A DNA stretch of 64,000 bases from contig CAVURN010000001.1 in the NCBI GenBank assembly GCA_963743915.1, positions 736,001 through 800,000 of the forward strand. Direction: 5' to 3'. The translations under genes and the position numbers were made by a program. The DNA comes from an uncultured Actinomycetota bacterium. GTDB lineage: Bacteria; Actinomycetota; Actinomycetes; JAHEKZ01. The notes under the pieces were generated by a model that made no database searches, was not told where the DNA came from, and was given only the letters and a program-made list of their open reading frames with translations. This document shows, piece after piece, positions 23,239 to 32,913 of the stretch; position 1 is the first letter of the stretch, and every line of letters begins with the position of its first letter.

Positions 23239-23311
23239 CTTGAACGGGCGCGGCACCGGTGGACCAGAGTGGAGCCCGGTGCCGAGATGCGGCGCGTTGG
23301 CAGGAGGCACA

Positions 23312-24809
23312 ATGACCAAGCACGTGACCCACTGGATCGACGGCAAGCTCCACGGCGGCGTCGCCGAGCGCCAGGGTGACATCTTCGACCCGGCCACCGG
23401 ACAGGTCAGCGGTCACGTCGACTTCGCCGACGTGGCCATCGTGGACGAGGCCGTGGCCGCGGCGAAGGCCGGCGTTCGCGCGAGTGGCGCCACGCGTCGC
23501 TCACCAAGCGGAGCCAGGTCCTGTTCAAGTTCCGTGAGCTGCTCGACGCCCGCAAGGGAGAGATCGCCGAGCTCATCACCGCCGAGCACGGCAAGGTGCT
23601 CTCGGACGCGCTGGGTGAGGTCACGCGCGGCCAGGAGGTCGTCGAGTTCGCCTGTGGGATCCCGCACCTGCTCAAGGGCGGCTTCTCCGAGAGCGTCTCG
23701 ACCCGGGTCGACGTCTACTCGATCCGTCAGCCGCTCGGCGTCGTCGGCATCATCTCGCCGTTCAACTTCCCGGCCATGGTGCCCGATGTGGTTCTTCCCC
23801 ATCGCCATCGCCGCGGGCAACGCGGTCATCGTCAAGCCGAGCGAGAAGGACCCGTCGGCCGCCAACTTCATCGCCGAGCTCTGGGCCGAGGCGGGGCTGC
23901 CCGCGGGTGTCTTCAACGTGGTGCACGGTGACAAGGTCGCCGTCGACCGGCTGCTCGAGCACCCCGACGTCAAGGCCGTCTCGTTCGTCGGCTCCACGCC
24001 CATCGCCCGGTACGTCTACGAGACCGGGACCAAGAACGGCAAGCGGGTGCAGGCCCTCGGCGGGGCCAAGAACCACATGCTCGTGCTGCCGGACGCCGAT
24101 CTCGACCTGGCGGCCGACCAGGCCATCAACGCAGGGTTCGGGTCGGCCGGCGAGCGCTGCATGGCCATCTCCGCGCTGATCGCGGTCGACAGCATCGCCG
24201 ACGACCTGATCGCGAAGATCACCGAGCGCATGGGGACCCTGCGCACCGGTGACGGTCGCCGCGGCTGCGACATGGGGCCGTTGGTCACCGCGCAGCACCG
24301 CGACAAGGTCGCCGGCTATGTCGCCGCCGGGGTCGAGGAGGGCGCATCGCTGGTGGTCGACGGCCGCGAGGTGCAGCCGGACGGTGAGGCCGGATGGCTT
24401 CTGGCTCGGCCCCACGCTGTTCGACAACGTCACGCCCGACATGAGCATCTACACCGACGAGATCTTCGGACCGGTGCTGTCGGTGGTGCGCGTGCACTCC
24501 TACGACGAGGGCCTCAAGCTCATCAACGACCACCCGTACGGCAACGGGACCGCGATCTTCACCAACGACGGTGGCGCCGCGCGCCGCTTCCAGAACGAGG
24601 TCGAGGTCGGCATGGTCGGCATCAACGTGCCGATCCCGGTGCCGATGGCCTACTACTCGTTCGGGGGCTGGAAGAACTCCCTCTTCGGCGACACCCACGC
24701 GCACGGCATGGAGGGCGTGCACTTCTACACCCGCGGCAAGGTCGTCACCAGCCGCTGGCTCGACCCGAGCCACGGCGGCATCAACCTCGGCTTCCCGCAG
24801 AACGCCTGA
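23312..24809 (+). CDS. mmsA: CoA-acylating (methyl)malonate-semialdehyde dehydrogenase (3 frameshifts)
   Basis: [69 protein letters not shown]. Confidence 0.85.
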
Positions 24810-24899
24810 GCCGGCGTCCCGCAGAACGCCGAGCTGCTCACCTCGCTCACCCGCTTGGGTGATCGACCCGCGAGCGCTCAAGGTCGATGCTTACTGACT

Positions 24900-25424
24900 G
24901 TGAGCACCGGGGGAGCACGCGACGTCATTCGGGTCATCACCGACTTCCGGAGAGCGTTGGGCGAGGTGGCGCCGCAGGACTGTCCTGAGGCTGCCGCCGA
25001 GTTCCTCTGTGAGCTCTTCGAGGGCTCGGCGACGGCGCTCAACCTGATGGACTACGGCCAGACCCGGTTCCAGACCGTGACGAACGTGGGTCGGCTGACG
25101 CGGGACGAACGCCGCGTGCCGCTGGGTGAGTACTACGGGTTCGCCGACTTCCCCATGACGACGCAGGCGCTGGCGAAGGGTGCGGCCTACCGGTCCTCCC
25201 TGCTCGACCCCAACTGTCCTCCGGAGTACCGCACGCTGTTGAGCGCGCAGCGTCGCACCGATTGCATGGGGGCCCCGATCCGCCTCTCCGGCCGTCCGGT
25301 GGGGGAGTTCTGGGTCTCCCGTGACTCCGGTCGGCCCTTCACCGAAGTCGACGAGGACTTGGCGGTCGCCTGCGGCGCCACGCTCGCCCGCTACTTCCGG
25401 CCGAGCTGGGCTCACGCCGGCTGA
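24900..25424 (+). CDS. Stand-alone GAF-domain protein
   Basis: YGFADFPMT, CMGAPIRLSGRPVGEFWVSR..RPFTEVDEDLA GAF pattern; start uncertain (24855 or 24900). Confidence 0.6.
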   Translation: MSTGGARDVIRVITDFRRALGEVAPQDCPEAAAEFLCELFEGSATALNLMDYGQTRFQTVTNVGRLTRDERRVPLGEYYGFADFPMTTQALAKGAAYRSSLLDPNCPPEYRTLLSAQRRTDCMGAPIRLSGRPVGEFWVSRDSGRPFTEVDEDLAVACGATLARYFRPSWAHAG

Positions 25425-25451: not shown

Positions 25452-26480
25452 ATGACGCGCTACGGCCCCATGTTCGGCCCTGACATCACCTTCCTCGGCG
25501 TGCCCGCCTGTGACCTCGACGAGCCGGACACGTACGCGGACGCCGACGTGGTGATCGTGGGTGCGCCGTTCGACGGTGGCACCAGCCACCGCCCTGGCAC
25601 GCGGTTCGGTCCCATGGCCATGCGCTCCACCGACTACCTACCGCACGACGGCGTCCGCCCGCACATGGCGATGCGGGTCGAGGCCTTGACCGAGGACCTC
25701 CGCGTGGTCGACGCGGGTGACCTCGAGGTCTACTCGGGCGACGTCGTGCGCAGCTGTCAGATCATCGAGGACGCGGTGGCCACCATCGCTGAGTCCGGCA
25801 AGATCCCGCTCGTGCTCGGCGGCGACCACACCGTCACCTGGCCGGACGTCACCGGGGTCGCCCGCGCCGCCGGCTACGGCCGGGTGTCGGTGATCCACTT
25901 CGACGCCCATGCCGACACCGGCGACATCGAGTTCGGCTCGCTCTACGGACACGGCCAGCCCATGCGCAGGCTCATCGAGTCGGGTGCTGCGCGCGGCGAC
26001 CGCTTCCTGCAGCTGGGGCTGCGCGGCTACTGGCCCGGCCCGGACATCCTCGACTGGATGGCCGACCAGAACATGCGTTCGTTCCACATGAGCGAGATCG
26101 TCGCCAAAGGCCTCGACGCGGTGCTGGACGAGGCCTTCACCATCGCCACCGACGACTGCGACGGGATCTTCCTGTCGGTCGACATCGACGTCTGCGACCC
26201 CGGGCACGCCCCCGGTACCGGCACCCCGGAACCGGGGGGACTGACCGCCCGCCAGCTGCTCGACGCCGTCTCGCGCATCTGCTACGAGCTGCCCGTGCTC
26301 GGCGTCGACGTGGTGGAGGTCTCCCCGCCCTACGACCACGCCGAGATCACCGCCTTCCTGGGCAACCGGGTGGTGCTCGAGGCCCTCTCCGGCATCGCAC
26401 GACGCCGCAAGGACGGCGGCCAGGTGCGCTGGGACCGGGCCACCCCGCTGCTCGACGGGCGTGGCTCCGGGTCCGTCTGA
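25452..26480 (+). CDS. speB: Agmatinase (ureohydrolase)
   Basis: GGDHT, HFDAHAD, SVDIDVCDP, GTGTPEPGG, VEVSPPYD. Confidence 0.9.
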   Translation: MTRYGPMFGPDITFLGVPACDLDEPDTYADADVVIVGAPFDGGTSHRPGTRFGPMAMRSTDYLPHDGVRPHMAMRVEALTEDLRVVDAGDLEVYSGDVVRSCQIIEDAVATIAESGKIPLVLGGDHTVTWPDVTGVARAAGYGRVSVIHFDAHADTGDIEFGSLYGHGQPMRRLIESGAARGDRFLQLGLRGYWPGPDILDWMADQNMRSFHMSEIVAKGLDAVLDEAFTIATDDCDGIFLSVDIDVCDPGHAPGTGTPEPGGLTARQLLDAVSRICYELPVLGVDVVEVSPPYDHAEITAFLGNRVVLEALSGIARRRKDGGQVRWDRATPLLDGRGSGSV

Positions 26481-26643
26481 GACCCTCTCTGACCTGGGCA
26501 ATATCACTCTCCGTAACATCGCCTGACACTGTGTGTTCACCCGTATGGCGGTCTAACGATGTCGCTCTCCGGCACGAAGTAATCACTGTGGGGGTGACGT
26601 TGTGCACTTCCCGCTCGTCGCGACTGAAATGGGAAGGGGAGCG

Positions 26644-26751
26644 ATGAAGAACATCAAGTCAGAGATGGTGGTCCGAGGCAGCGCTGCTGCGGTGGGCCTC
26701 ATGGTGCTCGTGTCCGTTGTCGGGGCCGGCACCAAGTGGATGAACAACTAA
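26644..26751 (+). CDS. 35-aa hydrophobic peptide with C-terminal SVVGAGTKW motif (putative signal precursor 1)
   Basis: AAGGGGAG SD, ATG...TAA; MKNIKSEMVVRGSAAAVGLMVLVSVVGAGTKWMNN; paralogous to the next ORF. Confidence 0.8.
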   Translation: MKNIKSEMVVRGSAAAVGLMVLVSVVGAGTKWMNN

Positions 26752-26764
26752 AGGAGGCGATCAC

Positions 26765-26871
26765 ATGATGGACGAGCTCAAGGCTCGCGTGATCGTCTCC
26801 GTGCTGGGCAGCGCCGCCACGGTGGTGACCCTGGCATCTGTGGTCGGAGCCGGAAAGAAGTGGGCCGCTAA
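26765..26871 (+). CDS. ~35-aa hydrophobic peptide with SVVGAGKKW motif (putative signal precursor 2)
   Basis: AGGAGG SD; MMDELKARVIVSVLGSAATVVTLASVVGAGKKW; TAA at 26869-26871 is one base out of frame (restoring one G gives ...KKWGR*); as assembled it reads on to 27070. Confidence 0.7.
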
Positions 26872-26878
26872 CGACACC

Positions 26879-26917
26879 AGAAGGGGGAGCCGTCGATCGT
26901 TCGGCGGCTCCCCTTCT
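26879..26917 (+). terminator. Strong hairpin between the peptide genes and the sensor gene
   Basis: agaagggggagccgtcga-tcgt-tcggcggctccccttct. Confidence 0.6.
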
Positions 26918-28986
26918 TCGTCGTCCCGAGTGGGCGCTTTCGGCCTACATCTGGGCCGTCATCGTCGACGGGGCTGCTGCTCCTGGTCGTGTCACTCTTC
27001 CTGGCACCGCTGTCCGAGGCCTTCGGGGTCGACGCATGGGGCGGATACCCCTCCCAGGGACTCGTGCTGACCCTGCTCGTGGGCACGGTGATCATCGGGG
27101 AGCTGCGCCCCGTCCCGGTGCCGCGCGGCGGCGACACCGCCGACATGATCACCATCTCCACCACGTTCACCCTCACGCTGGCCATCGTGGGTCCGGTGAG
27201 CGTCGCCCTGCTCGCCCAGGCGGTCGCTGTGCTCATCGACGACGCGATCTCCCGTCGGTCCCCGGTCAAGATCGCCTTCAACGTCGCGCAGTACACGATC
27301 ACGGTGATGGCCGCCCATACCGCGTACTCCCTCGTCGTCGGCGAGCCGGTCTTCGGGCCCTACAACTACTTCGACCACAACGCGCTGGAGCTCGCAGGTG
27401 CCTGGTCGCCGCCTTCGTCTTCCTGCTGGTGAACCAGGCACTGGTCTCCACCGTGGTCTCGCTCGCCTCCGAGCAGCGCGTCCGTACCGTCTTCGTGCAG
27501 GACCTGCGCTTCCAGGCGATGACCGCCGGCGTCCTCTCGATCCTCGCCCCCGTGGCAGCGCTCGTGGTGCAGGCGCAGCCGCTGATGCTCCCGATGCTGA
27601 TCGCGCCGGTCGCTGCGGTCTACAACAGCGCGCAGGCTCGCCGTCGCGATGGGTCGTCAGGCGAGCCACGACGCGCTGACCGGCCTGGCCAACCGCGAGC
27701 TGTTCCGCGAGCGGGCGGTCAAGGCACTCGAGGACTCGCAGCGGACCGACCAGCCCCTGGCGATCATGATGATCGACCTCGACCACTTCAAGGAGATCAA
27801 CGACACCCTCGGCCACCAGGTGGGCGACGAGCTGATCTGCGAGGTCGCTCACCGGCTGGAGGAGGCACGGCCAGCGGGTGCCACGGTGGCCCGCCTCGGT
27901 GGCGACGAGTTCGCGGTGCTCCTGCCGGACATCCCCGACCTCTCGGTCGCTGAGGACGTGGCCACGTACCTGCTGTCGGTCCTCGGCAAGTCGTTCTCGG
28001 TGGGCGGTGTCCGGCTGGTGGTGCAGGCGAGCCTCGGCATCGCCCTTGCTCCTGACCATGGCGACGACGTCCACACGCTCATGCGCCGCTCCGACATCGC
28101 GCTCTACGAGGCGAAACGCGAGCGCGCACGCTTCTGTGCCTACACCTCCGAGGACGAGGACACCCACACCCCGCAACGTCTCACGATCCTCACCGACCTG
28201 CGGTCGGCGGTGGAGGAGGACGAGCTCTTCCTCGTCTACCAGCCGAAGATCGATGTCGCGAGCGGCGAGGTCGCCGGTGTCGAGGCGCTGGTGCGCTGGA
28301 ACCACCCCACCCGCGGCATCCAGTACCCCGACACGTTCATCCCGCTGGCCGAGAACACCGGTCTCATCACACCGATCACGTGGTTCGTGGTGGAGCGCGC
28401 CCTCCGTCAGGTGCGGACATGGCAGGAGAACGGGATCGACCTGTCGGTCGCGGTCAACCTCTCGGTGCGCCACCTCACCGACATGAGTCTGCCGGACCGG
28501 ATCGCGGTCGCCCTCGAGCGCTGGGGGGTGGCACCGTCCAAGCTGGTGGTCGAGGTCACCGAGAACAGCATCATGACGGACCCGAAGCGTGCGACGGTCG
28601 TGCTGCAGCAGCTGCGCAGGATCGGCGTCGAGATCGCGATCGACGACTACGGCACCGGCCATGCGTCCCTGAACTACCTCAAGCGCTTCGACATCGACGA
28701 GCTCAAGGTGGACAAGTCGTTCATCATGAACCTGGACCCCGACTCGAGCGACGCGATCATCGTCGCCTCCACCATCGAGCTCGGCCACAACCTCGGGCTG
28801 CGGATCGTCGCCGAAGGGGTCGAGGACGCCGCGACGCTCGAGTGGCTCGGCGGCCTCGGGTGCGACATCGCGCAGGGCTTCCACATCGGGCGACCGATGA
28901 CTCCGGAGGCCATCGTCGAGGTCGTGCGTGAGCGCGGCGGGGACCACCGGTCCGCTGGTCCGCTGCGTCTGGTCGGGAGCAGCTGA
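26892..28986 (+). CDS. Multi-TM sensor domain plus GGDEF-EAL (diguanylate cyclase/phosphodiesterase); frameshifts near 26967, 27405 and 27636
   Basis: Hydrophobic N-terminal segments across three frames (GELRPVPV, ITISTTFTL, KIAFNVAQ, FLLVNQALV); HDALTGLANR, RLGGDEF, VEALVRW, DDYGTG, AEGVE, QGF; no clear start codon seen. Confidence 0.85.
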
Positions 28987-29634
28987 TGCTCGTCCTCGTC
29001 CTGTGCGTCTTGTCGCTCGCGTCGCCCGTGCTGTTCGGCGGGCAGATGTCGCGGCTCGCCTTCGTCCGGTTCCGTGGCTGGTGGATCCTGGTCGCGGCGC
29101 TGCTCGCGCAGATCGTCATCATCGAGGTGGTTCCCGACGCGAACCGCACGCTGCTGGAGAGCGTGCACATGGCGACGTACGTCGCGGCGGGCGCCTTCGT
29201 CGCCATGAACTGGCGGGTGCCGGGACTCCTGGTCATCGCGCTGGGGGGCGCCTCGAACGGCATCACGATCGCCCTCAACGGCGGGCAGCTGCCGGCGTCG
29301 CGACCCGCTCTGGAGATGGCGGGCATCGAGGTGGCCAACGGTGACTTCATCAACTCCGGTGTGCTGAAGGACCCCGTGCTGCCGCTTGCTGGGTGACTAC
29401 TTCGTGTGGCCTGAACCCTTTCCGTTCGCCAACGTGTTCAGCGTCGGGGATGTGCTGATCGTCCTCGGTACGCTCTACGGCGCTCACAAGATCACCGGGT
29501 CGCGTCTGGTCAAGCGCCCGTGGCGGCTGCCCGACGACGTCGAGGCGATGCTGCGGGGAGGCCGCGGGGACGCCGAGGTGCCGGCTGGGGCGGCAGAGGG
29601 GCAGTCCGGTCGTCTGCGGATGCGGTGCCGGTAG
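28986..29634 (+). CDS. DUF5317-like membrane protein (frameshift near 29389)
   Basis: TGATG coupling; GG..SRL..VRFRGWW, LGGASNGITIALNGGQLP, LGDYF, NVFSVGDVLIVLG. Confidence 0.75.
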
Positions 29635-29809
29635 CCGCGGCTCCGGAGTCCCTCGCCGAGCGTCTCGCCCGACGTCGGGGCCCTAACCAGCGAAGAGCAC
29701 GACACAGGTTAGGATCGGTGGCGCCGCGAGCCCGATGCCCGGAGGATGCCACCCCGAAGGGCTCGGGTCCATGGACACCGCGGCGTCCGCCGACGGAAGG
29801 ACTTCTCTC

Positions 29810-31032
29810 ATGCGCATCCTGCTGGTCGGAGCAGGGGGTGTCGGCTCGGCGGTCGTGCCGATCGCTGCTCGCCGTGACTTCTTCGAGACCGTGGTGGTGG
29901 CCGACTACGACCGTGACCGCGCCGAACGTGCCGTCGCGCAGGTGGACGACCCGCGCTTCGTCGCTGCCGAGGTGGACGCGTCGAACGCCGAGGCAGTGGT
30001 CGGTCTGGTCCGTGAACATGCGATCACCCACGTCCTCAACGCCGTGGATCCACGGTTCGTGCTCCCCATCTTCAACGGGGCGTTGGCGGCTGGTGCTGAC
30101 TACCTGGACATGGCGATGTCGCTGTCGTTCCCCCATCAGGACGAGCCGTACGCCAAGACCGGCGTCAAGCTCGGCGACGAGCAGTTCGCGGTGGCCGGTG
30201 AGTGGGAGAAGGCCGGTCGGCTGGCACTGGTGGGCGTAGGCGTCGAGCCCGGCCTCTCCGACGTGTTCGCCCGCTACGCAGCCGACGAGCTCTTCAGCGA
30301 GATCGACGAGGCCGGTGTCAGGGACGGATCGAATCTCGAGGTCGACGGGTACACGTTCGCTCCCTCGTTCTCGATCTGGACCACCATCGAGGAGTGCCTG
30401 AACCCGCCGGTGATCTGGGAGAAGGACAGAGGGCTGGTTCACGACGCCTCCCTTCTCCGAGCCGGAGGTGTTCGACTTCCCGGAGGGCATCGGACCGGTC
30501 GAGTGCGTGAACGTCGAGCACGAGGAGGTCCTGCTCATCCCGCGGTGGGTCGACTGCCGGCGCGCGACCTTCAAGTACGGCCTGGGTGAGGAGTTCATCG
30601 ACGTCCTGAAGGTGATCCACAAGCTCGGCATGGACCGGACGCAGAAGGTCGCGGTGGGGGACGTCGGAGGTCAGCCCCCGCGACGTCATCGCCGCGCTGC
30701 TTCCCGACCCCGCCACGCTCGGCGACCGCATGACGGGCAAGACGTGCGCCGGCACGTGGGTGACCGGTACCGGCAAGGACGGCAAGCCCACGTCAGGTGT
30801 ACCTGTACCACGTGGTCGACAACGAGTGGACGATGCGCGAGTACGGCTCGCAGGCCGTCGTGTGGCAGACGGCGATCAACCCCGTCGTCGCCCTCGAGCT
30901 GCTGGCCGACGGGTCATGGTCGGGAACCGGCGTCCTGGGACCGGAGGCCTTTCCGCCGAAGCCTTTCCTGGACAAGCTCGTCGCCTACGGGTCACCGTGG
31001 GGCATGCGCGAGGAGACGCCACGCCAGCATGA
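29810..31032 (+). CDS. Saccharopine dehydrogenase/carboxyspermidine dehydrogenase-family enzyme (several frameshifts)
   Basis: MRILLVGAGGVG, YLDMA, GVEPGLSDVFA, FSIWTTIEECLNP, VEHEEV, QAVVWQTA, GVLGPEAF; 3' end approximate. Confidence 0.8.
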
Positions 31033-31553
31033 GACGCCACCTGGTCGTGGCGGCCGCTGGGGTCTTCGGGCTGTCGGTGGTTGGCTGCATGGATCAAGGT
31101 CCGATGGATCAGCTGCGCGAAACGATGAGCACCCTGTCCGTTCCCGAGGCCCTGGAACCCTGGCGGGTCCAGCCCTGGAAGGGGGTCGACGGATGGGAGT
31201 CGCTCGAGATGCGGGACGGACGTGACGCGCTCATCTGGGAGGGTCCCCGAGGCATCGACAACGAAGACGCCTGGATAGCAAGTGGCTGGCGGCTCGAGCC
31301 CGTTGTGTCCGAGGGTGATCCCGTCGACCAGGCCTGTGCGGTGCTCGTCGAGCTCGTCGAGGCGAATGTCGCGGCTCGCGACACGATGACCGGCGAACCC
31401 GTCAAGTGTCAGGACGAGAAGTGGCCCATCAAGCGGTCGTACTCGCTGGAATGGTCGACCACGCAGGACGGACGATCGCTCGAAGCGGACGCCACACTGA
31501 GGGAGACGGGGCGCGCTGACGTCTTCACCTTCACCGTGACCGTCGGCGAGTGA
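31029..31553 (+). CDS. Hypothetical lipoprotein
   Basis: MRRHLVVAAAGVFGLSVVGC signal peptide/lipobox; ATGA overlap. Confidence 0.6.
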   Translation: MRRHLVVAAAGVFGLSVVGCMDQGPMDQLRETMSTLSVPEALEPWRVQPWKGVDGWESLEMRDGRDALIWEGPRGIDNEDAWIASGWRLEPVVSEGDPVDQACAVLVELVEANVAARDTMTGEPVKCQDEKWPIKRSYSLEWSTTQDGRSLEADATLRETGRADVFTFTVTVGE

Positions 31554-31590: not shown

Positions 31591-32913
31591 TCAACGACTG
31601 AGCGTTGCCATGACGGGACCGAGGACCGTGGCGATGATGCGCGCGTGACGCAGCTGCAGGCGGGACCACGGCGCCCGGTCTCGCCGGGAGCACTCGAGCA
31701 GCCCGACGACGCTGCCGGCAGCGAGGACCGGGATGCCGATCATCGTGGCCATGCCCTCGGTCGTCATCCACGCCACCTCCGCCGGATCGGCATCGGGGTC
31801 GTCACGGTCGACGGTCATGATCTCGAGGGTCTCGAGGCACCGCGCCGTCTGCGGATAGTCCGCCAAGGGGTACCGCATCCCGTCGGGCATCCACACCCGC
31901 CGGGACATTCCCTGCGCGTACTGGCGGGTCGGGTCGACCGAGGAGATCTCGGCCAGGTCGCACTGCAGGTGGGCGCTGATGGCATCGGCCATCCGGGCAA
32001 GGCTGTCGAGGTCGTTGCAGTGCACGAGGTCGGCGAGCAGGCGTTCGAGTGCGCTCGTGTCCTGCCCCGGGGCGCGTGAGCCCAGCGCCAACGTGCGGCG
32101 GTAGGAGCTCTGGCAGGTGAGCACAGCGGACTCGCTCGCGGCGGCGAACTCCGGGGTGGGCATCCCGATCACCCAGCCCTGTGCCTCTGCGACGTCGAGG
32201 TCGGCGAGCACGTAGAGGCCGTCGAGGTTCTCCACGCCCTCGGCGCACACCTCCGCCCCGACGCGGGCGGCATACCGCACCACAGCCTCGACGAGGGCTG
32301 CCTTGGCGGCCTGTGACTCGATGCCGGTGACGAGCGAACGGTCGAGCTTGAGAAGGTCGGGGGACAGGGTCATGACCCGCTGAAGTCCGGCGTAGCCCTC
32401 TCCGACGTCGTCCACGGCGATGCGGGCACCGCGGTCCCGCAGGGCACGGAGGACCACCTGGAATCCGTCGCCGTCCTCGACGACCTCCTTCTCGGTGATC
32501 TCGAACTGCACACCGGTCAGGTCGAACGGAAGGACGTCGTGGAACTCCGGGGCGGACAGCACCGAGGGACTGACGTTGACCGAGAGGACCGATCCGTCGG
32601 GTCGGCTCTCGCCGACTCGCATCGCCAGGTCGACCGCCCGGGCCTCGAACATCGGCCCGAGACCGCACCGGTGCGCCATCGCGAACCAGGTGTCGGGGGA
32701 GTGCGAAGGCAGATCGGCCCCGAAGCGGGACAGTGCCTCGTAGCCGACGACCCGCCCGGACGAGAGGCCCAGGATCGGCTGGACGACGATCGACGGAGCC
32801 CCGCTGTGCAGCGCCCGGGTGACGAGGGCGCGGCACTCATCCACATCGGGCAGGGGATCCGGCGCAGCCGTGGACGCCGGCTCGGCCGCGATCGCTGCCC
32901 CGGTGCTGGTCAT
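31591..32913 (-). CDS. EAL-domain c-di-GMP phosphodiesterase with C-terminal GAF domain
   Basis: GYEALSRF, NVSP, EITE, DDVGEGY, KLD, AEGVE, QGW; GAF YPLADYPQT...GIPVLAAGSVVGLLEC. Confidence 0.85.
   Translation of the reverse strand: MTSTGAAIAAEPASTAAPDPLPDVDECRALVTRALHSGAPSIVVQPILGLSSGRVVGYEALSRFGADLPSHSPDTWFAMAHRCGLGPMFEARAVDLAMRVGESRPDGSVLSVNVSPSVLSAPEFHDVLPFDLTGVQFEITEKEVVEDGDGFQVVLRALRDRGARIAVDDVGEGYAGLQRVMTLSPDLLKLDRSLVTGIESQAAKAALVEAVVRYAARVGAEVCAEGVENLDGLYVLADLDVAEAQGWVIGMPTPEFAAASESAVLTCQSSYRRTLALGSRAPGQDTSALERLLADLVHCNDLDSLARMADAISAHLQCDLAEISSVDPTRQYAQGMSRRVWMPDGMRYPLADYPQTARCLETLEIMTVDRDDPDADPAEVAWMTTEGMATMIGIPVLAAGSVVGLLECSRRDRAPWSRLQLRHARIIATVLGPVMATLSR

What the first reader, a model, noticed from the sequence alone, without database searches (positions are those of the whole stretch)
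26644..29634. Candidate peptide-signalling system controlling c-di-GMP: two GAGxKW peptides, a membrane GGDEF-EAL sensor and a DUF5317 processing protein
Seen: four co-oriented genes. Two ~35-aa ORFs have strong SD sites (the first is below the ORF-track cutoff, the second is hidden by a read-through). They are followed by a multi-TM GGDEF-EAL protein with intact GGDEF, EAL and DDYGTG motifs and no RxxD I-site, then a translationally coupled (TGATG) DUF5317-like membrane protein. Known: precursor + membrane peptidase + membrane receptor is the layout of Gram-positive quorum systems such as agrBDC, which signal through histidine kinases. Inference: the precursors are processed at the membrane, and a short Trp-containing peptide binds the TM sensor domain to switch cyclase/phosphodiesterase activity. 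That would be peptide sensing wired directly to c-di-GMP. I know of no characterised system of this kind.
Basis: partly seen in the sequence, partly recalled or inferred. Interest (0 to 1): 0.92.

Follow-up and report, generated by a model that had tools for sequence, protein, structure and literature searches.

The report
Micro-protein, c-di-GMP enzyme, DUF5317 module
Two tiny membrane proteins, a membrane enzyme that makes and breaks the bacterial messenger c-di-GMP, and a membrane protein of unknown function form a gene unit kept together across many actinobacteria and apparently undescribed, so it may show what this class of sensor responds to.

Summary
Window 26644-29634 carries two paralogous 34-35-aa ORFs with strong ribosome-binding sites, a multi-pass GGDEF-EAL enzyme and a DUF5317 protein, all on the + strand.

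In this assembly the second small ORF has lost its stop, the enzyme is split into four frame pieces and DUF5317 into two. An ortholog in a genus relative is intact. Contigs from other metagenomes carry 1-base differences at three of the five break points. Assembly error is therefore the likelier cause.

The small ORFs are real genes:
- Start, length and C-terminal motif (VVGAGxKW plus 0-3 residues) are conserved.
- dN/dS is about 0.17-0.20.
- They match 82 protein clusters, all unnamed.

Linkage is strong. Of 80 loci found through DUF5317 alone, 79 have GGDEF-EAL upstream. Of 70 that could be judged, 67 have one or two such peptides by HMM and 2 more have one by inspection.

- The DUF5317 model has no significant PDB match.
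- The tail after Trp is short and variable.
- One face of the peptide helix is conserved.
- A co-fold weakly favours the intact peptide docking on the sensor domain.

Earlier notes of this scan report the same module on other DNA.

The parts
26520..26643 (+). Conserved non-coding 5' leader ahead of pep1. It holds an imperfect palindrome (TGACAC..GTGTTCA, about 26524-26542). A TCGTCGC block can pair with GCGATGA over the pep1 start codon.
   Evidence: DNA alignments of genus and family orthologs. Both blocks together occur only at cassette loci of family f1, not at orphan peptide pairs or in other families. No Rfam match at E<=1 in this region. Only 1 of 13 predicted pairs shows a compensatory change, so a structure is not shown.
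26644..26751 (+). pep1: 35-aa single-pass micro-protein ending ...VVGAGTKWMNN, stop included.
   Evidence: ORF and SD. 94% identical to the G003 ortholog. Profile hits in 35 of 201 class genomes. dN/dS 0.17.
26768..26866 (+). pep2: paralogous micro-protein, conserved part up to ...VVGAGKKWA. In the window the stop is missing and the frame runs to 27070.
   Evidence: 94% identical to the 34-aa G003 ortholog. Orthologs stop 0-2 codons after KKW(A). dN/dS 0.20.
26862..28986 (+). Membrane GGDEF-EAL enzyme (ortholog 711 aa). MASE9-like multi-helix region is about 26862-27640, GGDEF 27661-28125, EAL 28195-28896. Frame breaks in the window lie near 26970, 27402 and 27633.
   Evidence: tblastn with the intact ortholog. 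Pfam. AF2 model of the N-terminal 270 aa: pLDDT 88.8. Relatives' contigs carry +G after 27401 and -1 at 27632.
28986..29634 (+). DUF5317 membrane protein (orthologs 182-259 aa). Its start overlaps the enzyme's stop (TGATG). Frame break in the window near 29386. The C-terminal tail is variable.
   Evidence: Pfam PF17248.. A contig of X1 lacks 1 base at 29386. AF2 model pLDDT 88.5, pTM 0.81.

Best explanation
The locus is one operon-like membrane signalling module.

Components:
- Two paralogous 34-35-aa micro-proteins. Each is a single hydrophobic helix with a basic N-terminus and the C-terminal cap VVGAGxKW.
- An RmdB-like enzyme with a multi-helix MASE9-like membrane domain followed by GGDEF and EAL domains.
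- A DUF5317 membrane protein.

Most likely mechanism (inferred, not shown): the micro-proteins are not precursors. They insert into the membrane whole, N-terminus inside, with the GAGxKW cap at the outer interface. They pack through one conserved helix face against the MASE9-like domain. DUF5317 is a third membrane partner whose conserved loops also face outward. Together they set whether the enzyme makes or degrades c-di-GMP.

In kind this resembles small single-pass regulators of membrane sensors such as MgrB or SafA acting on PhoQ (recalled from memory).

Shown here: the genes are real, conserved, under purifying selection and persistently linked.

Inferred: the topology, the physical contacts and the effect on enzyme activity.

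The frame breaks in the window copy are most likely assembly errors.
For: Real genes:
- 33-36-aa ORFs with ATG and SD in all 16 family loci.
- 28-37 aa with SD in 25 further loci.
- Pooled dN/dS 0.17 and 0.20 at dS about 1.08.
- 82 clusters at E<=1e-3 among 1.84 billion representatives, all 29-103 aa with the motif at the C-end.

Linkage:
- The peptide profile alone was searched in 201 class genomes. 18 of 20 distant loci fetched showed peptide, MASE-like GGDEF-EAL, then DUF5317 on one strand.
- Starting from co-located MASE and DUF5317 hits, 23 of 23 examined loci have the peptide.
- Starting from DUF5317 alone, 79 of 80 loci have GGDEF+EAL upstream. 67 of 70 evaluable loci have 1 (41) or 2 (26) peptides. 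One further locus has a divergent peptide, one has it on the opposite strand, and one has none.
- In other classes of the phylum, 17 of 18 peptide-hit loci lie directly upstream of a MASE-like gene. In 4 published genomes DUF5317 is there but divergently transcribed. Linkage therefore survives rearrangement.

Coupling: the enzyme's stop overlaps or abuts the DUF5317 start in the window and in the three orthologous loci checked for it, L064, L075 and L076.

Helix packing:
- Conservation rises towards the C-end.
- Positions -18, -14, -11, -7 and -4 form a heptad-like face.
- K at -2 in 81 of 81, W at -1 in 78 of 81.

Co-fold of the MASE-like domain, DUF5317 and pep1 (G003 orthologs): weak support.
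- Score 0.54, best of 3 controls 0.03.
- The mark was reached by 58 of 80 solved complexes and 2 of 110 mismatched pairs. At 0.60 or under it was reached by only 7 of those 80 and by both passing mismatches.
- Runs agree in at least 83% of contacts. Partner pLDDT is at least 62.
- Replacing the MASE chain while keeping DUF5317 gave 0.03.

Enzyme: RmdB of S. venezuelae has the same layout (8 TM helices, GGDEF, EAL) and is an active phosphodiesterase (PMC13232838, passages).
Against: - No experiment, and no expression data for this locus.
- The co-fold pass is weak and gave no interface. Hydrophobic helices can dock non-specifically, and the two replacement partners among the controls were unrelated natural 34-residue proteins, not shown to be membrane helices.
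- The invariant part of the peptide (VVGAG-x-KW) is contiguous, like a recognition or cleavage signal, and not only periodic. GAG also fits the small -3/-1 rule of signal peptidase (recalled).
- In the genus, 10 of 10 extra peptide-pair loci have no MASE, GGDEF, EAL, HD-GYP or DUF5317 gene within the 6.6-15.5 kb fetched. The peptides can therefore exist apart from the enzyme.
- In one genome (G208) peptide plus DUF5317 sit in one place and the enzyme in another. That points to DUF5317 rather than the enzyme as the peptide's nearest partner.
- One of 70 evaluable loci has no peptide (L149).
Confidence: 0.45

Rival explanations
1. First reader's model. The small ORFs are precursors that are exported and cut at the membrane, with DUF5317 as a dedicated peptidase. 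A short Trp-containing peptide then acts as an extracellular (quorum) signal on the membrane domain of the enzyme.
For: - Signal-peptide-like layout: basic N-end, about 20 hydrophobic residues, then small residues G-A-G, then x-K-W.
- The contiguous invariant motif looks like a recognition site.
- DUF5317 has invariant polar residues (H61, N91, N98, D137, S152, D155) in loops inferred to face outward.
- Multiple orphan peptide pairs in the genus recall multiple pheromone genes.
- One locus has peptide plus DUF5317 alone (L072).
Against: - The DUF5317 model has no PDB match at E<=0.001. Best E is 2.3 and TM is at most 0.29 normalised by query length (at most 0.37 by target length). Its profile has no PDB sequence match.
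- The product would be 3-6 residues with only K and W fixed. 11 of 81 representatives end at the W/F position.
- The helix is under purifying selection with a conserved face.
- 17 second-subfamily DUF5317 loci had no peptide by HMM. Only 2 of 6 loci inspected more widely showed a peptide-like ORF.
- No exporter gene was seen among the Pfam-scanned neighbours.
Confidence: 0.15
2. The peptide's primary partner is DUF5317. DUF5317 binds or modifies the peptide's C-terminal cap, and this pair is the input unit that talks to MASE9-type enzymes.
For: - In G208 the peptide sits directly upstream of DUF5317 with no enzyme gene between them, while the enzyme lies on another contig (L072, L103).
- DUF5317 accompanies MASE9-type enzymes of two output kinds: GGDEF-EAL, and HD-GYP (Pfam).
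- DUF5317's conserved loops and the peptide cap are both inferred to lie at the outer face.
Against: - In the co-fold control that kept DUF5317 but replaced the MASE chain, the score fell to 0.03 (a weak test).
- G208 is a 100-contig assembly with 4% contamination.
- Peptide-like ORFs at second-subfamily loci lie next to the HD-GYP gene, not next to DUF5317.
Confidence: 0.15
3. The small ORFs are cis-acting leader (ribosome-arrest or coupling) peptides. Their translation controls expression of the downstream enzyme, as with TnaC, SpeFL or MifM (recalled).
For: - Position immediately upstream. The pep2 end overlaps the likely enzyme start in the genus.
- The strongest conservation is in the last eight codons before the stop.
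- The conserved leader can pair over the pep1 start codon.
Against: - Orphan pairs occur with unrelated downstream genes.
- One locus has the peptide on the opposite strand (L150).
- The distance to the enzyme start varies from an overlap to roughly 90-320 nt up to the first aligned residue of the membrane domain.
- The helix face is conserved far from the stop.
Confidence: 0.08
4. The peptides are an independent two-peptide membrane-active product (bacteriocin- or toxin-like) that is merely syntenic with the c-di-GMP genes.
For: Paired A-type and B-type genes, multicopy in the genus, rich in small residues.
Against: - Linkage to the enzyme persists across classes and through rearrangements.
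- 41 of the 67 DUF5317-ascertained loci where the HMM found peptides have a single peptide.
- No MASE, GGDEF, EAL, HD-GYP or DUF5317 gene lies near the orphan pairs, and by-eye reading of their ORFs showed no shared neighbour. Transporter, immunity and leader-peptidase genes were not searched for.
Confidence: 0.05
5. The window copy is a decaying pseudogene cluster, with real frameshifts rather than assembly errors.
For: Five frame disruptions in 3 kb. Genome completeness is 90%.
Against: - Neighbouring housekeeping-type genes are also split across frames. These are an aldehyde-dehydrogenase-like ORF at 23240-24862 and saccharopine dehydrogenase N- and C-domains in different frames.
- The pieces remain 60-89% identical to the intact ortholog, with no in-frame stops inside them.
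- Contigs of three other runs differ by exactly one base at 27401 and 27632, and one run at 29386.
Confidence: 0.1

Closest known systems
RmdB of Streptomyces venezuelae (membrane GGDEF-EAL phosphodiesterase)
   Same: Same layout and size: eight predicted TM helices (aa 28-232), GGDEF (258-421), EAL (426-670) (PMC13232838, passages). Here the membrane region spans about residues 1-260, GGDEF 270-424 and EAL 448-681. The EAL, DDYGTG and GGDEF motifs are present.
   Different: No sequence comparison with RmdB itself was possible, because no RmdB sequence was held. In the sampled family with 5-9 Mb genomes (f3; my guess is streptomycetes), a MASE-like hit was found in 8 of 8 genomes, DUF5317 in 0 of 8, and a peptide hit in 1 of 8. 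That one hit lies inside a 776-aa open frame and is probably spurious. The peptide and DUF5317 partners are therefore what is new.
MASE9 sensor domain (Pfam PF20972; T. maritima TM1467, S. venezuelae HdgA)
   Same: Multi-helix membrane domain fused to c-di-GMP enzymes, including GGDEF-EAL. The authors suggest ligand binding inside the membrane (preprint 10.1101/2021.11.05.467447, passages). My domain profile hits the MASE9 region of five MASE9-HD-GYP proteins at E 1e-6 to 2e-9. Two of these neighbours pass Pfam's cut-off (29.2 and 25.5 bits).
   Different: The window's domain itself scores 19.6-19.8 bits, below the 24.3 cut-off. The preprint does not mention DUF5317 (0 occurrences), and the four MASE9 passages shown by the find mention no partner micro-proteins. 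Its Figure S5 was not available to me.
Small single-pass regulators of membrane sensors (MgrB or SafA with PhoQ; recalled from memory)
   Same: 30-50-aa single-helix proteins that act by binding a sensor's membrane or periplasmic part. The proposed mode of action is the same.
   Different: No sequence relation. The target here would be a c-di-GMP enzyme, not a histidine kinase. The genes are co-transcribed with the target and with a third membrane protein. Binding has only weak in-silico support.
agrBDC-type and Phr-type peptide signalling (recalled)
   Same: A small precursor-like ORF next to membrane proteins, with a signal-peptide-like shape.
   Different: No AgrB family hit, no Cys for a thiolactone, no histidine kinase, no Rap-type receptor, and the tail after the putative cut is only 3-6 residues.
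S-components of ECF transporters (CbiM, NikM, RibU, BioY, ThiT)
   Same: The predicted fold of the MASE9-like domain gives its best PDB matches to these ligand-binding membrane subunits. Foldseek probability is up to 1.00 (0.97-1.00 for the four S-components among the top five hits). TM normalised by target is 0.49-0.64 for the best of them.
   Different: All E-values are 0.058 or worse and none is at or below 0.001. There is no sequence match. This is a lead, not a classification.

Membership tests
DUF5317 (Pfam PF17248) | Match to the family profile above the curated cut-off (25 bits) | tested here: met
   Window pieces score 49.0 and 28.1 bits. The intact ortholog scores 81.6 bits over profile positions 2-148 of 151. 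It is the only copy in the genome.
GGDEF diguanylate cyclase domain (PF00990) | Profile match and the GG(D/E)EF active-site motif | tested here: met
   158.5 bits. RLGGDEF is read. No RxxD inhibitory site five residues upstream. Catalytic activity was not tested.
EAL phosphodiesterase domain (PF00563) | Profile match and the EAL, DDYGTG and EGVE-type motifs | tested here: met
   248.7 bits. EAL, DDYGTG, EVTE and AEGVED are read.
MASE9 (PF20972) | Profile match above 24.3 bits | tested here: not met
   19.8 bits on the window piece and 19.6 bits on the intact ortholog. Homology is supported only transitively.
MASE9 (PF20972) | Eight membrane segments, two of them too short to span the membrane and forming an intramembrane hairpin. 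Conserved aromatic and Asn/Ser positions (preprint passages). | tested here: inconclusive
   The AF2 model (pLDDT 88.8) has helices at 25-48, 68-84, 102-112, 115-132, 137-162, 177-206, 210-230 and 232-241/243-269, plus a beta-hairpin at 87-99. Invariant residues are F142, N143, Q146, Y147 and N194. This is compatible but was not mapped onto the published alignment, whose supplement is closed.
agr-type quorum sensing (AgrB/AgrD/AgrC) | AgrB-family membrane peptidase next to the precursor | tested here: not met
   Pfam and NCBIfam scans of all pieces give only GGDEF, EAL, MASE9 (weak) and DUF5317.
agr-type quorum sensing (AgrB/AgrD/AgrC) | Precursor with a Cys (or Ser) for a thiolactone ring and a charged C-terminal tail. 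Histidine-kinase receptor. | tested here: not met
   None of the 35 aligned cassette peptides has a Cys or Ser placed for a ring followed by a charged tail. The only Cys is in the two-residue tail of one row, and the tails are 0-4 residues. The receptor candidate is a GGDEF-EAL enzyme.
Sec signal peptide with signal-peptidase I site | n-, h- and c-regions with small residues at -3 and -1, and experimentally shown cleavage | not testable with these tools
   The shape is compatible. No signal-peptide predictor or experiment was available.
New micro-protein family (VVGAGxKW, unnamed) | 28-37 aa, one hydrophobic helix, C-terminal G-A-G-x-K-W/F plus 0-3 residues | tested here: met
   pep1 and pep2 score 63.5 and 62.5 bits against the family profile. 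No Pfam hit. The only NCBIfam hit at E<=0.1 is a sub-threshold one for pep2 (BagZ_FevE, E 0.077, 13.1 bits against a 200-bit cut-off). Sources call members 'hypothetical protein'. The nearest ESM Atlas clusters are unnamed.

The most novel reading that the evidence does not exclude
The micro-proteins are the physiological ligands of a MASE9-type membrane pocket (a pocket with an ECF-S-component-like fold). Their level, cleavage or release gates c-di-GMP synthesis against breakdown. DUF5317 would be the enzyme or chaperone that loads or trims their KW cap, and the orphan peptide pairs would be extra trans-acting inputs.
Probability: 0.18. Interest if true: 0.9.

Novelty: new variant of a known kind. 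Interest (0 to 1): 0.74.

Why it matters
What membrane-embedded (MASE-type) domains of c-di-GMP enzymes sense is largely unknown. The authors who defined MASE9 could only suggest ligand binding inside the membrane.

A micro-protein family and a novel-fold membrane protein that travel with such an enzyme give a concrete, testable candidate for the input side.

In actinomycetes c-di-GMP decides development, and the architecturally similar RmdB is described as the central enzyme.

The unit occurs in cultured genera (Kineosporia, Demequina, an Acidothermaceae isolate; record titles), so genetics and biochemistry are feasible.

It is also a reminder that genes of about 100 nt, below usual annotation cut-offs, can be core parts of signalling operons.

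Tried and rejected
- DUF5317 as an LspA-like or GxGD-like aspartyl peptidase. This was my own idea from the NGGxLP and SxGD motifs. Foldseek against the PDB gave nothing at E<=0.001, and a profile search of PDB sequences gave 0 hits.
- c-di-GMP riboswitch or other known RNA ahead of the peptides. No Rfam family at E<=1 in 26480-26643. No GEMM hit at gathering score in 11 cassette loci, where only three tRNAs were found.
- Structure in the conserved leader. RNAalifold gave 13 pairs, and only 1 has a compensatory change.
- Promoter and terminator consensus scan of 26300-29900: 0 and 0.
I used the search of protein representatives and the listing of cluster members instead.
- Homolog search with DUF5317 returned only close actinobacterial relatives and added no breadth.
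- Sequencing runs: no run held more than 0.20 of the stretch's words. No source-sample check and no expression evidence were possible.
- A 780-aa member of one peptide cluster (P0049) is unrelated to the peptides by its sequence and looks like a clustering artefact.
- Peptides at second-subfamily DUF5317 loci: the HMM found none significant in 17 loci. Peptide-like ORFs were found by eye in 2 of 6 loci.
- Literature: DUF5317 0 papers. MASE9 2 papers, of which 1 is relevant. Four further term combinations found nothing pertinent.


Full report
**What is in the window**

The region lies in a 2.9-Mb, five-contig, high-G+C actinobacterial assembly that is 90% complete.

On the + strand, after an arginase-family gene (25452-26480) and a 160-nt spacer, four elements follow:
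- pep1 (26644-26751, 35 aa).
- pep2 (start 26765/26768).
- A membrane GGDEF-EAL enzyme (about 26862-28986).
- A DUF5317 protein (28986-29634).

These rest. Both small ORFs have strong purine-rich ribosome-binding sites. The enzyme's TGA overlaps the DUF5317 ATG. The motifs GGDEF, EAL and DDYGTG are readable, and there is no RxxD site.

**State of the window copy**

- pep2 has no stop until 27070.
- The enzyme is in four frame pieces.
- DUF5317 is in two.

In a genus relative (G003, locus L004) everything is intact: pep1, a 34-aa pep2, a 711-aa enzyme and a 259-aa DUF5317.

Nearby genes in the window are also split across frames: an aldehyde-dehydrogenase-like gene at 23240-24862, and the two saccharopine dehydrogenase domains.

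Contigs from three unrelated metagenome runs, 90-99% like the window, carry one extra G after 27401 and lack one base at 27632. One run lacks a base at 29386. These are exactly the changes that keep the frames open.

For the other two break points the table was cut. Contigs spanning them do carry gaps (table 8).

I read the breaks as assembly indels (about 0.9), not decay.

**The small ORFs are genes**

- In 16 of 16 same-family loci that reach far enough upstream, both ORFs are present, 33-36 aa long, with ATG and SD. Three further loci are cut by contig ends.
- Pooled dN/dS is 0.17 (pep1) and 0.20 (pep2), with synonymous sites near saturation.
- A profile of 27 peptides found 82 clusters at E<=1e-3 among 1.84 billion representative proteins. 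All are 29-103 aa with the match at the C-terminal end.
- Among 81 of these, K at -2 is invariant, W at -1 occurs in 78, and G-A-G at -6 to -4 in 77-81.
- The tail after W/F is 0 (11), 1 (36), 2 (18) or 3 (12) residues. Four longer tails look like read-throughs.
- Sources name the members 'hypothetical protein'. No Pfam model matches, and the only NCBIfam match at E<=0.1 is a sub-threshold one (BagZ_FevE, 13.1 bits against a 200-bit cut-off) for pep2. The nearest ESM Atlas clusters are unnamed.

**Linkage, tested three ways**

(a) Starting from the peptide.
- The profile hit 35 of 201 genomes sampled across the class.
- Of 20 distant loci fetched, 18 show peptide, then MASE-like GGDEF-EAL, then DUF5317, on one strand.
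- One locus shows peptide then DUF5317 only.
- One locus shows a peptide pair with a MASE-like GGDEF gene 2.8 kb downstream.

(b) Starting from the enzyme and DUF5317.
- By eye, 25 genomes outside the family have a MASE-like hit within 3 kb upstream of a DUF5317 hit.
- I examined 23. I left out G054 (unpublished) and G103, whose pieces look fragmentary.
- All 23 have an upstream 28-37-aa ORF with an SD, ending G-A-(G/P)-x-K-(W/F) or a near variant (one ends S-A-P-G-K-W), plus 0-2 residues.
- Of these, 20 were found by the HMM, one by a local HMM (E 4.6e-4), and two by inspection.

(c) Starting from DUF5317 alone in 185,579 species genomes.
- I took the best 80 of 125 confirmed loci.
- 79 have GGDEF and EAL upstream on the same strand.
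- 10 cannot be judged because of contig ends or a broken gene.
- Of the 70 evaluable loci, 67 have one (41) or two (26) peptides by HMM.
- L148 has a divergent peptide, L150 has one on the opposite strand, and L149 has none.

The search pattern in (c) came from this subfamily, so the sample is of this subfamily only.

Beyond the class, 19 of 301 phylum genomes (the window's own genome G000 included) had peptide hits.
- Of the 18 loci outside the window's genome, 17 lie directly upstream of a MASE-like gene. The remaining one lies inside a 430-aa frame and is spurious.
- In four published genomes (G386, G471, G311, G298) DUF5317 is present but divergently transcribed.

Linkage that survives rearrangement argues for function, not mere inheritance of gene order.

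**What the partners are**

The enzyme:
- It has the layout of RmdB of Streptomyces venezuelae, an active phosphodiesterase with eight TM helices, GGDEF and EAL (PMC13232838; passages seen).
- Its membrane domain scores below Pfam's MASE9 cut-off (19.6-19.8 against 24.3 bits).
- My profile of that domain nevertheless hits the MASE9 region of five MASE9-HD-GYP proteins (E 1e-6 to 2e-9). Two such neighbours pass the Pfam cut-off.
- Its AF2 model (pLDDT 88.8) finds, as best PDB matches, the ligand-binding S-components of ECF transporters. Probability is up to 1.00 and TM by target is 0.49-0.64, but the best E-value is only 0.058. This is a lead consistent with ligand binding inside the membrane, as the MASE9 authors suggested (preprint 10.1101/2021.11.05.467447; passages seen).

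DUF5317:
- It is found in 97 of 201 class genomes.
- It falls into two groups. One is the group described above. In the other, seen in 17 loci by a weaker match to my query with no GGDEF-EAL beside them, a convergent MASE9-HD-GYP gene and a second HD-GYP gene were found in 6 of the 8 loci fetched more widely and confirmed by Pfam at 3.
- DUF5317 is therefore a companion of MASE9-type enzymes in general.
- Its model is confident (pLDDT 88.5, pTM 0.81). It has no PDB match at E<=0.001 and no PDB sequence match.
- Nothing marks it as a peptidase.

**Mechanism**

Two observations favour an intact membrane helix over a cleaved signal:
- Conservation follows a heptad-like face (-18, -14, -11, -7, -4) in addition to the terminal motif.
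- The putative released part would be only 3-6 residues.

By the positive-inside rule (my inference) the peptide is N-in and C-out. DUF5317's invariant loops (NGGxLPA, FxNS, LGD, SxGD) also face outward.

A three-chain co-fold (membrane domain, DUF5317 and pep1, all G003 orthologs with my alignments) gave weak support:
- Score 0.54, best of 3 controls 0.03.
- The mark was reached by 58 of 80 solved complexes and 2 of 110 mismatched pairs. At 0.60 or under it was reached by only 7 of those 80 and by both mismatches that passed.
- The runs agree in at least 83% of contacts. The partner's pLDDT is at least 62.
- With the membrane-domain chain replaced and DUF5317 kept, the score was 0.03.

My best reading (0.45) is that the micro-proteins are accessory subunits of the sensor domain, working with DUF5317 to set c-di-GMP turnover.

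Rivals and their weights:
- Pheromone model, 0.15.
- A DUF5317-centred unit, 0.15.
- A cis leader peptide, 0.08.
- An unrelated membrane-active pair, 0.05.

Facts that any final model must explain:
- The contiguous invariant VVGAG-x-KW.
- Ten of ten orphan peptide-pair loci in the genus with no c-di-GMP or DUF5317 gene nearby.
- The split arrangement in G208.

**Novelty**

In the held library, 'DUF5317' occurs in 0 papers. 'MASE9' occurs in 2, of which one is relevant and does not mention DUF5317. Four other term searches found nothing pertinent. Supplements are closed, so Figure S5 of the MASE9 preprint was not seen. Subscription-only papers are not covered.

Earlier notes of this scan describe the same trio in other genomes. 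In Chloroflexota they report a c-di-GMP riboswitch ahead of the peptides. I found no such riboswitch here or in 11 actinobacterial cassettes.

I class the finding as a new variant of a known kind (small membrane regulators of sensor enzymes), with a real chance that it is more than that.

Noticed in passing
window 26520-26643: A roughly 125-nt non-coding leader ahead of pep1 is conserved at nucleotide level across the genus and family. It contains an imperfect palindrome (TGACAC..GTGTTCA) and a TCGTCGC block that can pair over the pep1 start codon. It is absent from orphan peptide pairs and from other families. No Rfam match.
   Followed up: partly
L023-L032 (genus relatives G003, G004, G006, G007, G008, G009, G012): Extra peptide genes occur elsewhere in these genomes, nearly always as an A-type (...GAGTKW[M/Q]) followed by a B-type (...GAGKKWA). 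There are up to three tandem pairs. No MASE, GGDEF, EAL, HD-GYP or DUF5317 gene lies within the stretch fetched. The window's own genome has only the one pair.
   Followed up: partly
L083-L102 and L209-L216: A second DUF5317 subfamily has no GGDEF-EAL beside it. Where the flank was fetched (6 of 8 loci), a convergent MASE9-HD-GYP gene and a second HD-GYP gene follow it. 2 of 6 loci have a peptide-like small ORF (...AGAGVNWH, ...SASANVHWR) just upstream of the HD-GYP gene.
   Followed up: partly
model of L004:1867-2676 (ortholog of window 26862-27640): The predicted fold of the MASE9-like domain gives its best PDB matches to ECF-transporter S-components (CbiM, NikM, RibU, BioY). Foldseek probability reaches 1.00, but E-values are only 0.06-0.6.
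   Followed up: partly
window 31594-32913 (- strand): A second c-di-GMP gene lies 2 kb downstream: a soluble EAL-GAF protein (EAL 5.8e-41, GAF 9.3e-8).
   Followed up: no
window 23240-24862 and 29735-31225: Neighbouring genes (an aldehyde-dehydrogenase-like ORF; saccharopine dehydrogenase N- and C-domains) are also split across reading frames. This points to frequent single-base indels in this assembly.
   Followed up: partly
L072, L103 and L063 (G208): In one genome the unit is split. Peptide plus DUF5317 lie on one contig, the MASE-like GGDEF-EAL alone on another, and a peptide pair 2.8 kb upstream of a MASE-like GGDEF gene on a third.
   Followed up: partly
window 24855-25424: A 189-aa ORF with a sub-threshold GAF match (21.4 against 22.4 bits) lies just upstream of the arginase-family gene.
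   Followed up: no
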